Source of the DNA: Escherichia phage AV117
DNA length: 64,000 nucleotides
Direction: 5' to 3' (one strand)
Sequence record: OR352947.1
How positions within the stretch are numbered: position 1 is the stretch's first letter; the number at the start of each line of letters is the position of its first letter. The position numbers and the translations under genes are program-made. Below, piece after piece: positions 47,758-49,277 of the stretch. The notes beneath the pieces are model-generated. The model was given only the letters and a program-made list of their open reading frames with translations, was not told the origin of the DNA and made no database searches.

Positions 47758-48384
47758 TTACTTACGAGTTTTTGCATACTGAGCAGCGTCAGCAGCCAAA
47801 CGACCTGCCTGACGAAGTTTTTCTTTAATCGCATCGTGAAGTGGTTGAGTATACTTCAAACCTTCGATAGTCAAATAAAGACGATAAAGGTCTGGGGTAT
47901 CAAGGTTGTTGATATGTTGGCCATTGCGAAGAATATTGAATTCACGAACGAGTGAAGATGTATCGGATTCAATATCGCGAACAAGCGAAGATAGTTGTTT
48001 ATATTTTTTTTCCAGGCTAGAAGTATCAAACTTAAGAGCAGGAGCTTTAGGAGTTGCTTTTACTTCCGGCTTAGGCTCAGGTTTTGCTATTGCTTTAGGG
48101 GTCGCAGGTTTAGGAATGGTAGGAGCAGGTTTTACTTTAGGCGAACCCGATTTAGCAGAAACACCACCACTAACAATATCTTTGAATGCTTTAGAAGCTC
48201 TGTAATATTCTTTTTGGCTGGAAGTGTCGATACCGTACATGGCTTGAACGTTTTTGAAAAACTCTGTACTAGTTTTTGTACCAGAAATAGCATCGTAAGC
48301 AGCTTGCCATTTCTCTTTTGTCATACGTATACCGGCTTCGGTGATTACTTCCGTTTCGGCTAAAAATTCATTAAAAGTATACAT
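47758..48384 (-). CDS. internal-protein-like protein with variant CTS and Pro/Lys-rich linker
   Basis: 208 aa; N-terminal MYTFNEFLAETE resembles MKTYxEFIxE CTS; central PKVKPAPTIPKPATPKAIAKPEPKPEVKATPK repeats. Confidence 0.55.
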   Translation of the reverse strand: MYTFNEFLAETEVITEAGIRMTKEKWQAAYDAISGTKTSTEFFKNVQAMYGIDTSSQKEYYRASKAFKDIVSGGVSAKSGSPKVKPAPTIPKPATPKAIAKPEPKPEVKATPKAPALKFDTSSLEKKYKQLSSLVRDIESDTSSLVREFNILRNGQHINNLDTPDLYRLYLTIEGLKYTQPLHDAIKEKLRQAGRLAADAAQYAKTRK

Positions 48385-48428: not shown

Positions 48429-48456
48429 AAAAAAGCCCCAACCTTTCGGAAGGGGC
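48429..48456 (-). terminator. rho-independent terminator
   Basis: minus-strand GCCCC-N12-GGGGC hairpin followed by U6; near-copy of 32360..32388 terminator. Confidence 0.6.
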
Positions 48457-48499
48457 TATATACCTTGTCGGGGTTTCCACCTACTAGGTAAGTGTTTTT

Positions 48500-48657
48500 A
48501 CGAAACGCCGGGATTCGAACCCGGTTATTAAGCAGTTGACGCTACTCAATATTTTTAAAAGGCCATATCTCGACCATATCCGAACGTTCCGTCAAAAACG
48601 CTACTCGGCTTACGGCAAAGATATTTCCTCGAATCGATAATTCTGTGCGCCGTTTCT
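48500..48657 (-). ncRNA. candidate tRNA-like small stable RNA
   Basis: minus-strand CCGGG-UUCGAAU-CCCGG T-arm with adjacent CGUUUCG acceptor strand and distal complementary GAAACG; about 158 nt, too long for a canonical tRNA. Confidence 0.25.
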
Positions 48658-48759
48658 GCTGTGATGTAAGGGGGTATTAACAAATCGTAAAGATTTATTA
48701 AGACCAGTCCTTACTCAGGGAACATCAGTCCGACGTCTTGCCGGTAGCGACCCGGCTTC

Positions 48760-49104
48760 TTATTTTGGCATATCATCAATTTGCTCTCGACGCCGACGCC
48801 ATAGATTAATCGCTTCATAAACACATTCAGCATTTGGTATATGGCGACAATAGTATAGTGATTCGCGTTTCTGGAACCGATGTTGTAATGGAATTTCGTT
48901 TAAAAGGTCTTTACGGTCAAAGTATTCAAAACTAGTTAACCCGGAACGGTTTTTAAGAAACTTCCAATGTCCGAATTCATTTTGAAAATAAACGTAATCA
49001 GCGTGTTGATATAACGAATTAATCAACCGGTCGGAAATAACTGTATCCTGTTCGTTAAAATAAAACGTTAAATCATGAACTACCAAATAAATATTGCCTT
49101 TCAT
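48760..49104 (-). CDS. hypothetical protein
   Basis: start set at ATG 49104 (MKGNIYLVVHDL) after GAGGAAAA, avoiding overlap with tRNA. Confidence 0.5.
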   Translation of the reverse strand: MKGNIYLVVHDLTFYFNEQDTVISDRLINSLYQHADYVYFQNEFGHWKFLKNRSGLTSFEYFDRKDLLNEIPLQHRFQKRESLYYCRHIPNAECVYEAINLWRRRREQIDDMPK

Positions 49105-49122: not shown

Positions 49123-49199
<77 letters not shown>

Positions 49200-49202
49200 G
49201 AT

Positions 49203-49277
49203 TGGTGACCCTGGCTGGTTTCGATCCAGCTACCTATCAGTTATGAGCTGACAGCTCTCCCATTGAGCTACAGGGCC
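49203..49277 (-). tRNA. tRNA with CAU anticodon (Met or lysidine-type Ile)
   Basis: 75 nt cloverleaf: acceptor GGCCCUG/CAGGGUC, anticodon loop CUCAUAA, T-arm GCUGG-AUCGAAA-CCAGC, encoded CCA. Confidence 0.7.

What the first reader, a model, noticed from the sequence alone, without database searches (positions are those of the whole stretch)
48500..48657. tRNA-like T-arm and acceptor embedded in a 158-nt candidate stable RNA next to the tRNA pair
A canonical CCGGG-UUCGAAU-CCCGG T-arm with adjacent acceptor strand is present, but the complementary 5' strand lies about 150 nt away, too far for a normal tRNA. T4 encodes small stable tRNA-like RNAs in its tRNA cluster; this may be an equivalent, a tRNA pseudogene, or an intron-containing tRNA.
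Basis: partly seen in the sequence, partly recalled or inferred. Interest (0 to 1): 0.45.

Follow-up and report, generated by a model that had tools for sequence, protein, structure and literature searches.

The report
Phage T4 species-1 RNA (rnaC) ortholog
The flagged stretch is this T4-like phage's copy of rnaC ("species 1 RNA"), a 139-nt tRNA-shaped stable RNA known since the 1970s whose function is still unknown; it is neither a new RNA nor a broken or intron-containing tRNA.

Summary
The window comes from a Mosigvirus-type T4-like phage. The T arm (48524-48508, minus strand) and the adjacent 3' acceptor strand are real. They belong to the ortholog of T4 rnaC (species 1 RNA) at window 48637-48499 (-), 139 nt, 137/139 identical to T4. 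A covariance model built only from distant homologs hits exactly there (91.5 bits, E 4e-21).

The conserved partner is CGAUUCG (48636-48630). It forms a 7-bp acceptor-like stem with compensatory changes and a near-invariant tandem U·U.

40 distinct homologs support a tRNA-shaped four-way junction:
- acceptor stem stacked on the T arm;
- a 70-nt arm, P2;
- a 10-bp hairpin, P3.

The 6-nt loops of P2 and P3 are exact complements, UUGACG/CGUCAA. They switch together to UUGGCG/CGCCAA in Marfavirus, which indicates a loop-loop (kissing) contact.

Function remains unknown in the papers I could read; a tRNA-mimic role is inferred. This is a known gene of modest interest.

The parts
48499..48637 (-). 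rnaC (T4 species 1 RNA) ortholog, 139 nt; the ends could be off by about 1 nt
   Evidence: Aligns to T4 rnaC (NC_000866 70908-71046) with 2 differences. Model R1, built only from class-B homologs, gives its single hit in the window here: 91.5 bits, E 4.1e-21, model positions 1-140.
48630..48636 (-). P1 5' strand, CGAUUCG (acceptor-like stem)
   Evidence: Pairs with 48507-48501. Pair 1 is CG in 33 sequences and AU in 1. Pair 3 is GC 23 / AU 10 / GU 1. Pairs 4-5 are U·U in 33 of 34 and U-A, U-A in phage PM2.
48501..48507 (-). P1 3' strand, CGUUUCG, followed by U48500 in the discriminator position and A48499
   Evidence: In Marfavirus the flank reads U-CCA, an encoded tRNA-like 3' end.
48508..48524 (-). 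T arm: CCGGG / UUCGAAU / CCCGG (loop 48519-48513)
   Evidence: Unique in the window; 0 expected by chance. The middle stem pair covaries: UA 21 / GC 11 / AU 1 / UG 1.
48560..48629 (-). P2: a 70-nt irregular hairpin arm at the position of a tRNA D arm
   Evidence: Seen in the minimum-energy folds of nearly all homologs. RNAalifold recovers it for the class-B set. The sequence is replaced wholesale between two classes, yet length and apical loop are kept. The apical stem has 5 of 5 pairs with compensatory changes and is 100% paired.
48590..48595 (-). P2 apical loop, UUGACG
   Evidence: Exact complement of the P3 loop. It is UUGACG in 31 distinct homologs and UUGGCG in 8.
48526..48551 (-). P3: 10-bp hairpin at the position of the anticodon arm, with the 6-nt loop CGUCAA (48541-48536)
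   Evidence: 9 of 10 stem pairs show compensatory changes. The loop is CGUCAA in 31 homologs and CGCCAA in 8, always matching the P2 loop.
48552..48559 (-). J2/3: A-rich single-stranded linker, UUAAAAAU
   Evidence: The AAAAU core is invariant or nearly so in alignment A2.
48638..48643 (-). 6-nt spacer, GAAUUA, between rnaD and rnaC
   Evidence: Alignment to the T4 annotation.
48644..48763 (-). rnaD (T4 species 2 RNA) ortholog, about 120 nt. It has a 5' hairpin at 48756-48740 and a closing helix G.CGUCG (48737-48731) / CGGCGC (48652-48647).
   Evidence: Aligns to T4 rnaD (NC_000866 71053-71171). Consensus fold of 17 variants. The hairpin's closing pair covaries, A-U to G-C.
48651..48656 (-). 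It lies inside the 3' end of rnaD.
   Evidence: It overlaps rnaD's closing helix by 2 nt. It is absent wherever rnaD is absent.
48429..48494 (-). 3' trailer: hairpin 48494-48478, then a GAAA-tetraloop terminator hairpin 48456-48435 and a U tract 48434-48429
   Evidence: Read from the sequence. Conserved with T4 and with Dhakavirus, where it follows rnaD directly. PMC2330249 states that the tRNA-cluster transcript terminates after the species I RNA gene.
49123..49277 (-). tRNA-Met (49277-49203) and tRNA-Arg (49199-49123), upstream members of the same minus-strand cluster
   Evidence: ARAGORN. Rfam tRNA at 59.4 and 71.1 bits.
48760..49104 (-). 114-aa ORF between tRNA-Arg and rnaD; its stop codon overlaps the first bases of rnaD
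   Evidence: Matches phrog_3355 (unknown function), E 1.9e-50. In T4, rnaD abuts tRNA-Arg directly.

Best explanation
Identity. The feature is the ortholog of bacteriophage T4 rnaC (species 1 RNA) at window 48637-48499 on the minus strand. It lies at the distal end of the phage's tRNA operon, just downstream of the rnaD (species 2 RNA) ortholog and upstream of a trailer hairpin and an intrinsic terminator.

Shown here:
- It folds as a tRNA-shaped four-way junction.
- P1 is a 7-bp acceptor-like stem closed by the RNA's own 5' end (CGAUUCG/CGUUUCG). It carries a near-invariant tandem U·U.
- P1 is directly continuous with a canonical 5-bp T stem and its UUCGAAU loop.
- P2 is a 70-nt irregular arm where a D arm would be.
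- P3 is a 10-bp hairpin where the anticodon arm would be.
- The 6-nt loops of P2 (UUGACG) and P3 (CGUCAA) are perfectly complementary and change together, so they most likely pair. The pairing could be within one molecule or between molecules.

Inferred:
- The acceptor/T-arm minihelix makes the RNA a substrate for the host tRNA-maturation machinery: RNase P at the 5' end, then exonucleolytic trimming and possibly CCA addition at the 3' end. That would excise it from the polycistronic tRNA precursor and make it stable.
- It has no free 7-nt anticodon loop and no D arm, so it cannot decode.
- It most likely acts as a structural tRNA mimic that engages a tRNA-binding host or phage factor, as a decoy or adaptor, rather than as a base-pairing regulator.

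The identity and the fold are well supported. The biological role is a guess at roughly 0.25.
For: Identity:
- 98.9% identity of the intergenic region to Mosigvirus phages, and 800 T4-like records with a match.
- Base-for-base alignment to the annotated T4 rnaD and rnaC.
- A covariance model built only from class-B homologs, whose P2 sequence is unrelated, hits 48499-48637 and nowhere else in the 64 kb: 91.5 bits, E 4e-21.

Fold (34 sequences; 30 sequences):
- 92.6% of cells are paired, against 35-47% when partners are slid.
- 19 pairs have changes on both sides; 0 of 500 shuffles reach the observed values.
- P1 pair 3 is GC 23 / AU 10 / GU 1, and pair 1 is CG 33 / AU 1.
- The tandem U·U becomes U-A, U-A in Pectobacterium phage PM2.
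- P3 has 9 of 10 pairs compensatory; the P2 apical stem has 5 of 5.

Loop-loop contact:
- 6 of 6 positions are complementary in 39 of 40 distinct homologs.
- The central A-U switches to G-C in all 8 Marfavirus sequences.
- A scan allowing any base at that loop position found only these two matched combinations.
- Length is held at 138-142 nt, and the P2 loop starts at nt 42-43, even though the P2 sequence is replaced.

tRNA-type processing context:
- In Karamvirus and Gelderlandvirus the RNA sits tightly between tRNA-Trp and tRNA-Gly.
- Marfavirus encodes U-CCA after P1.
- The base before P1 is U in most sequences.

Literature:
- The T4 tRNA-cluster transcript is the precursor of eight tRNAs plus species I and II RNAs, and ends after the species I gene (PMC2330249).
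- RNAC was detected by Northern blot as a late stable RNA (PMC9697503).
Against: - No transcript data exist for this particular phage, so the ends are transferred from the T4 annotation and could be off by a nucleotide.
- The loop-loop pairing rests on one compensatory event in one clade. In PM2 it is reduced to about 4 bp.
- P2 is about 25-30 bp-equivalents long and P3 is 10 bp. An intramolecular kiss would therefore need a sharp bend in P2; an intermolecular contact is an equally good reading.
- The T loop is not canonical in Winklervirus or in Kanagawavirus Q7622 (UGCAUCC, UGCAUGC). Dependence on T-loop recognition is therefore not universal.
- Nothing here tests processing, CCA addition, aminoacylation or any binding partner.
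- The reviews and papers I could read state that the function is unknown (PMC3014915, PMC9697503, PMC12685909).
Confidence: 0.88

Rival explanations
1. One reading: a 158-nt tRNA-like RNA (48657-48500) whose acceptor stem is closed by GAAACG (48656-48651) pairing with CGUUUC (48507-48502).
For: - It is a perfect 6-bp helix, and the minimum-energy fold of 48660-48495 uses it: -56.1 kcal/mol against -50.6 when P1 is forced.
- In the full rnaD-rnaC dimer the two options are nearly equal, -91.8 against -90.4. The helix could therefore form transiently in the unprocessed precursor of T4-type phages.
Against: - GAAACG belongs to rnaD and overlaps rnaD's own closing helix.
- rnaC occurs without rnaD, and without any upstream complement, in Karamvirus, Moonvirus, Kanagawavirus, Gelderlandvirus, Marfavirus, Winklervirus, Mosugukvirus, phage COW86c and phage Ursula.
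- rnaD occurs without rnaC in Dhakavirus and in a Providencia phage, with the same GAAACG.
- The 5' end of T4 rnaC as annotated in GenBank coincides with P1, not with GAAACG.
Confidence: 0.05
2. A genuine but unusual tRNA: either intron-containing, or a long-arm tRNA of about 94 nt made from the 3' two-thirds of the region. Some GenBank records annotate it this way: tRNA-Lys in phage 55, tRNA-Met in id4496, PG7 and SonariX.
For: - ACGGAACG (48592-48585) can pair with CGUUUCGU.
- Annotation pipelines call a 94-95-nt tRNA there.
- There is a weak Rfam tRNA-Sec match at 48500-48592: 16.6 bits against a gathering score of 47, E 3.5.
Against: - Pair counts for that helix show no compensatory change. 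Cells are unpaired in 17/30, 13/30 and 7/30 sequences at three positions.
- The internal strand does not exist in class-B homologs.
- ARAGORN and the Rfam tRNA model give nothing here.
- The P3 loop is 6 nt, not 7, and no D arm is present.
- No group I or group II intron family matches.
- The T4 Northern probe covers nt 1 to about 84, so that part stays in the stable RNA.
Confidence: 0.02
3. A decaying tRNA pseudogene or fragment with no function of its own.
For: It has a tRNA-like T arm and acceptor stem but no working anticodon arm. It is dispensable for T4 growth on laboratory strains (my own recollection of the T4 tRNA-region deletion mutants; not checked here).
Against: - 40 distinct homologs in ten genera keep length (138-142 nt), helices (compensatory changes in 19 pairs) and two 6-nt loops.
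- It is retained even in phages that have only one or two tRNA genes nearby.
Confidence: 0.02
4. A miniature tmRNA-like molecule: 5' and 3' ends form a tRNA-like domain around an insert.
For: - The topology is the same: the two ends form acceptor plus T arm around a large insert.
- The 5' segment AUCGAUUCGAGG loosely resembles the GGAUUCGAC segment of tmRNA (from memory).
Against: - ARAGORN finds no tmRNA, and Rfam finds no tmRNA family.
- Pair 3 of P1 is A-U or G-C, not the G·U alanine identity pair.
- No reading frame is conserved: P2 is replaced wholesale between the two classes.
- It is 139 nt, and the only candidate tertiary pairing is the P2-P3 loop contact.
Confidence: 0.01
5. Protein-coding DNA. 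Many GenBank records annotate 'hypothetical protein' over this stretch, and mechanical ORFs exist at 48555-48683 (-) and 48536-48640 (+).
For: Small ORFs are listed. 'Hypothetical protein' features lie under the match in many records.
Against: - The substitution pattern is RNA-helix compensatory.
- The two P2 classes share no reading frame.
- T4 produces a stable RNA from it.
- The ORFs are only 34-42 aa.
Confidence: 0.01

Closest known systems
Bacteriophage T4 rnaC (species 1 RNA, RNA C), GenBank NC_000866 70908-71046
   Same: 137 of 139 bases are identical. It has the same neighbours (rnaD upstream, trailer hairpin and terminator downstream), the same strand and the same place at the end of the tRNA cluster. 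This is the same gene.
   Different: In this phage a 114-aa ORF separates tRNA-Arg from rnaD, and only two tRNA genes remain in the cluster. The flank after the discriminator-position U is AAAA here and ACAA in T4.
Canonical tRNA (Rfam RF00005)
   Same: - A 7-bp stem made by the two ends.
- It runs directly into a 5-bp T stem with a UUCGAAU loop.
- It sits among tRNA genes.
- A single base follows the stem in the discriminator position, and CCA is encoded after it in Marfavirus.
   Different: - No D arm; a 70-nt arm takes its place.
- The arm in the anticodon position has 10 bp and a 6-nt loop.
- A tandem U·U sits in the acceptor stem.
- 139 nt long.
- Not detected by ARAGORN or by RF00005 even at E <= 10.
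T4 rnaD (species 2 RNA)
   Same: It is the adjacent stable RNA of the same transcript. It is also closed by a terminal helix followed by an ACCA-like tail in T4 and in the Providencia phage.
   Different: Its sequence and fold are unrelated, and it occurs independently of rnaC.
tmRNA tRNA-like domain
   Same: The 5' and 3' ends form acceptor plus T arm around a large insert.
   Different: No G3·U70, no tag reading frame, no match in ARAGORN or Rfam, and less than half the size.
   Same: Two loops of one RNA are mutually complementary, and the complementarity is kept by covariation.
   Different: There is no sequence or fold relationship. No evidence here shows multimer formation. From memory, T4 DNA packaging needs no RNA.

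Membership tests
T4 rnaC / species 1 RNA | Full-length sequence homology to the T4 rnaC gene | tested here: met
   Alignment A1 and A2: 137 of 139 identical, with no gaps.
T4 rnaC / species 1 RNA | Position: last RNA gene of the tRNA cluster, after rnaD, before the trailer hairpin and terminator, on the same strand | tested here: met
   PMC2330249 states that the transcript ends after the species I gene.
T4 rnaC / species 1 RNA | Shared secondary structure, recognised by a covariance model built from distant members | tested here: met
   R1, from class-B homologs only, scores 91.5 bits, E 4.1e-21, full length. It scores T4 itself at 93.6 bits.
T4 rnaC / species 1 RNA | Accumulates as a stable, processed RNA of about 140 nt in infected cells | not testable with these tools
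   Shown for T4 by Northern blot (PMC9697503). No data exist for this phage.
tRNA | Acceptor stem plus T arm with a T-loop consensus | tested here: met
tRNA | D arm, a 5-bp anticodon stem with a 7-nt loop, and a total length of 70-95 nt | tested here: not met
   The consensus fold has a 70-nt P2 and a 10-bp P3 with a 6-nt loop.
tRNA | Detection by tRNA covariance or heuristic models | tested here: not met
   ARAGORN gives none. RF00005 gives none at E <= 10; only tRNA-Sec appears, at 16.6 bits against a gathering score of 47.
Intron-containing tRNA | Exons that join into a cloverleaf, with an insert in the anticodon loop or a recognisable group I core | tested here: not met
   The insert is at the D-arm position. 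No intron family matches. The alternative internal acceptor helix is rejected.
tmRNA | G3·U70 pair, a resume codon and tag reading frame, and pseudoknots | tested here: not met
   Pair 3 is A-U or G-C. ARAGORN and Rfam are negative. No frame is conserved.

The most novel reading that the evidence does not exclude
rnaC may be a 'closed' tRNA mimic of a kind I have not seen described. A 70-nt strut of fixed length but free sequence would deliver a codon-like loop (U-U-GAC-G) onto the loop in the anticodon position (C-GUC-A-A). The central triplets co-vary from GAC·GUC to GGC·GCC. The invariant tandem U·U in the acceptor stem would serve as a recognition mark for a tRNA-binding host or phage factor that the RNA sequesters or recruits. 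That would put a concrete, mutable structure behind a 50-year-old orphan RNA. I could not check whether the loop-loop pairing was already noted in the older literature, because those papers are not in the searchable library.
Probability: 0.25. Interest if true: 0.55.

Novelty: already known. Interest (0 to 1): 0.27.

Why it matters
As a genome feature it is ordinary: every T4-type phage of this group carries it, and T4's copy was sequenced as RNA in the 1970s. It still has some value.

- **Annotation.** The gene is left unannotated, called 'hypothetical protein', or mis-called tRNA-Lys or tRNA-Met in most of the roughly 800 GenBank phage records that contain it. No Rfam family matched it.
- **Open function.** Its role is still unknown. 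The comparative model built here gives specific, cheap experiments:
  - an acceptor stem with a conserved tandem U·U;
  - a strut of fixed length;
  - covarying complementary loops.
- **Selection in nature.** The RNA is kept in phages that have lost nearly all their tRNA genes. A convergent SNP in the adjacent rnaD arose in a T4-like phage adapting to a semi-permissive E. coli host (PMC12685909). Both hint at a host-specific role.

Tried and rejected
- **tRNA and RNA-family detectors.** ARAGORN and Rfam at gathering threshold found only the two neighbouring tRNAs. Rfam in E-value mode gave only chance-level matches (PyrR, nse_sRNA, tRNA-Sec and others), all far below gathering scores.
It is thermodynamically favoured but rejected as the conserved stem on phylogenetic grounds.
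- **Internal acceptor option (the 94-nt 'tRNA').** Rejected by pair counts. My first constrained-fold runs used coordinates that were off by two. The internal-helix constraint was still mis-registered, so its energies are not used.
- **Public-collection scans.**
  - IMG/VR.
  - Metagenome contigs.
  - These returned only T4-like, Karamvirus, Marfavirus and Kanagawavirus copies.
  - L016, L029, L053 and L058 are chance matches to the pattern. L016 and L029 were checked with the model and L053 and L058 gave no hit.
  - No third loop combination was found.
- **Literature.**
  - A search for 'p2Sp1' returned unrelated papers.
  - 'species 1 RNA' plus 'bacteriophage T4' returned nothing.
  - The Miller et al. 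2003 T4 genome review is not held.
  - The 1970s-80s primary papers could therefore not be read; statements about them are from memory and marked as such.
- **Flanking ORFs.** PHROGs gave only families of unknown function.
- **Not attempted.** Protein-structure tools and the large protein searches, because the feature is an RNA.

Full report
**What is in the sequence**

All genes around 48.5 kb run on the minus strand. Reading that strand gives this order:
- tRNA-Met, 49277-49203.
- tRNA-Arg, 49199-49123 (ARAGORN; Rfam at 59.4 and 71.1 bits).
- A 114-aa ORF, 49104-48760.
- A 375-nt non-coding stretch.
- A 208-aa ORF starting at 48384.

The motif CCGGG-UUCGAAU-CCCGG sits at 48524-48508. It is unique in the window, and no match is expected in shuffles even with two mismatches. 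CGUUUCG follows it directly (48507-48501), as the acceptor 3' strand follows the T arm in a tRNA. The 6-mer GAAACG at 48656-48651 is complementary to CGUUUC, and the minimum-energy fold of 48660-48495 uses that helix (-56.1 kcal/mol, z = -3.5). Neither ARAGORN nor any Rfam family at gathering threshold reports anything at 48500-48657. In E-value mode there are only chance-level matches.

**What it is**

The non-coding stretch is 98-99% identical to Mosigvirus-type T4-like phages such as SSE1, JS09 and HX01. It has matches in 800 phage records. In the reference T4 genome the corresponding place carries two annotated stable RNAs: rnaD (species 2 RNA, 71053-71171) and rnaC (species 1 RNA, 70908-71046). 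Both lie directly after tRNA-Arg.

The window aligns to both without rearrangement:
- rnaD is window 48763-48644.
- A 6-nt spacer follows.
- rnaC is window 48637-48499, 139 nt, with 137 of 139 bases identical to T4.

A covariance model built only from the most divergent homologs (class B, whose central arm has an unrelated sequence) finds a single hit in the 64-kb window. The hit is at exactly 48499-48637 on the minus strand: 91.5 bits, E 4e-21, full model length.

**Which 5' strand closes the stem**

I collected homologs from GenBank phages, IMG/VR and metagenomes. This gave 40 distinct rnaC sequences from these groups:
- Tequatrovirus
- Mosigvirus
- Karamvirus
- Moonvirus
- Kanagawavirus
- Gelderlandvirus
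- Marfavirus
- Winklervirus
- Mosugukvirus
- unclassified phages (COW86c, Ursula)

Outside the T4/Mosigvirus type, rnaC occurs without rnaD. It often lies tightly between tRNA-Trp and tRNA-Gly. Nothing complementary to the 3' strand lies upstream of it. Conversely, Dhakavirus and a Providencia phage have rnaD with the same GAAACG but no rnaC.

The RNA's own 5' end is the conserved partner: CGAUUCG (48636-48630) pairs with CGUUUCG. Pair counts on 34 sequences give:

| P1 pair | Counts |
|---|---|
| 1 | CG 33, AU 1 |
| 3 | GC 23, AU 10, GU 1, none unpaired |
| 4 and 5 | U·U in 33; U-A, U-A in Pectobacterium phage PM2 |

A third candidate is an internal strand, ACGGAACG. It is what leads annotation pipelines to call a 94-nt 'tRNA-Lys' or 'tRNA-Met' here. 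It shows no compensatory change. It is unpaired in up to 17 of 30 sequences, and it does not exist in class-B homologs.

In the full rnaD-rnaC dimer it leads by only 1.4 kcal/mol, because there it competes with rnaD's own closing helix. It may form transiently in the T4-type precursor, but it is not the family's structure.

**Anatomy**

Single-sequence folds, RNAalifold on class B and explicit pair counting agree on a four-way junction:
- **P1:** 7 bp with a tandem U·U. It runs directly into the T stem, for 12 stacked pairs as in tRNA.
- **P2:** starts immediately after P1 and is a 70-nt irregular hairpin (48629-48560).
- **J2/3:** an A-rich linker of 8-11 nt follows P2.
- **P3:** a 10-bp hairpin (48551-48526) with a 6-nt loop. 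One base separates it from the T arm.

Over the shared helices:
- 92.6% of cells are paired, against 35-47% when partners are slid by 1-3 columns.
- 19 pairs have changes on both sides.
- No shuffle reaches the observed covariation.

The P2 sequence falls into two unalignable classes. Even so, total length stays at 138-142 nt, and the P2 apical loop always starts at nt 42-43.

**A loop-loop contact**

The P2 apical loop is UUGACG (48595-48590) and the P3 loop is CGUCAA (48541-48536). These are exact reverse complements. This holds in 31 distinct homologs, including both P2 classes. In all 8 Marfavirus sequences the loops are UUGGCG and CGCCAA instead. That is one A-U to G-C switch, in loops that otherwise vary only in PM2. 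A scan that allowed any base at that P3-loop position recovered only these two matched combinations. In PM2 the complementarity is reduced to GACG/CGUC.

I read this as a 6-bp kissing interaction. It rests on one evolutionary event, so I put it at about 0.7. The data cannot say whether the contact is intramolecular or intermolecular. An intramolecular contact would need a sharp bend in the long P2. An intermolecular contact would form a reciprocal dimer or a chain. The central triplets are GAC·GUC, or GGC·GCC in Marfavirus. The P3 loop looks like an anticodon loop lacking U33. That is an observation only.

**How it most likely works**

Shown:
- The ends form an acceptor/T-arm minihelix.
- The gene lies inside tRNA operons, often flanked on both sides by tRNAs.
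- The base before P1 is usually U.
- Marfavirus encodes U-CCA after P1.

From papers read here:
- The T4 cluster is transcribed as one precursor of eight tRNAs plus species I and II RNAs, and the transcript ends after the species I gene (PMC2330249).
- RNAC accumulates late and is detectable by Northern blot. The probe covers P1 5' and P2, so that arm is not removed (PMC9697503).

Inferred:
- The minihelix recruits RNase P and the 3'-trimming and CCA-repair enzymes that mature the neighbouring tRNAs. This would account for excision and stability.
- With no D arm and no free 7-nt anticodon loop, the RNA cannot decode.
- The conserved features are a tandem U·U in the stem, a strut of fixed length and locked loops. 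These point to recognition by shape, that is, a tRNA mimic binding some tRNA-binding factor.
- I give a specific decoy or adaptor role about 0.25.

The function is stated to be unknown in PMC3014915 (2010), PMC9697503 (2022) and PMC12685909 (2025). The last of these reports a convergent SNP in the adjacent rnaD in lines adapting to a semi-permissive host. That is a hint that the locus matters on natural hosts.

The following statements are from memory and were not checked here:
- Direct RNA sequencing of species 1 (about 140 nt).
- Its processing in RNase P and RNase III mutants.
- The viability of T4 tRNA-region deletions.

**Comparison and novelty**

This is a member of the rnaC/species 1 RNA family. 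Sequence, synteny and covariance-model tests were all met; only transcript stability in this phage could not be tested.

- It resembles a tRNA but is not one. The acceptor and T arm match, while the D arm, anticodon loop, size and model detection do not.
- It shares the ends-around-an-insert topology of tmRNA but none of tmRNA's defining features.
- As a finding it is already known.

The comparative structure may be new: the correct acceptor partner, the conserved U·U, and the covarying loops. I could not read the older literature to check.

**Verdict**

- The pseudogene and intron readings are rejected.
- Interest is low to modest.

Noticed in passing
window 48644-48763 (-): This is the rnaD (species 2 RNA) ortholog. 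Its 5' hairpin (48756-48740) has a 5-bp stem and the 7-nt loop GUCGCUA; the closing pair covaries, A-U to G-C. Its terminal helix G.CGUCG/CGGCGC is followed by ACCA in T4, CACCA in Providencia phage PSTCR6 and ACAG here. Its central arm is replaced in some phages (L010, L008).
   Followed up: partly
window 48760-49104 (-): A 114-aa ORF (phrog_3355, unknown function) sits between tRNA-Arg and rnaD. Its stop codon overlaps the first bases of rnaD. In T4, rnaD abuts tRNA-Arg directly.
   Followed up: partly
window 48429-48494 (-): The 3' trailer is shared with T4 and Dhakavirus. The hairpin at 48494-48478 has an A-U pair where T4 has G-C. The GAAA-tetraloop terminator (48456-48435) carries a tandem U·U where T4 has G·U/A-U. 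The consensus terminator scan missed it because of the mismatches.
   Followed up: partly
L008 and L009 (Dhakavirus), about 700-790: rnaC is precisely absent: the rnaD 3' end joins directly to the same trailer sequence that follows rnaC elsewhere. This looks like a clean deletion or insertion of the rnaC module.
   Followed up: no
L002 2669-2762; L005 751-845; L047 201-295: GenBank records annotate the 3' 94-95 nt of rnaC as tRNA-Lys or tRNA-Met. Many other records place 'hypothetical protein' CDS features over rnaC and rnaD. These are systematic mis-annotations.
   Followed up: yes
L021 (Q7622), L044, L046 (Winklervirus), L061: In these rnaC homologs the T loop is UGCAUGC or UGCAUCC instead of UUCGAAU. 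The stem and the rest of the RNA are kept, so the canonical T-loop sequence is not essential to the family.
   Followed up: no
window 49125-49199 (+): Sub-threshold Rfam matches to Plastid-ycf2 and Plastid-psbl-rps4 lie on the strand opposite tRNA-Arg. These are antisense-tRNA artefacts.
   Followed up: no
window 48740-48756 (+): The 'terminator-like' site reported on the plus strand is the antisense of the rnaD 5' hairpin followed by the A-run before it. It is probably not a real terminator.
   Followed up: no
window 47758-48384 (-): A 208-aa ORF (phrog_2280, unknown function) has a central Lys/Pro/Ala-rich stretch (PKVKPAPTIPKPATPKAIAKPEPKPEVKATPKAP). It lies directly downstream of the terminator.
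   Followed up: partly
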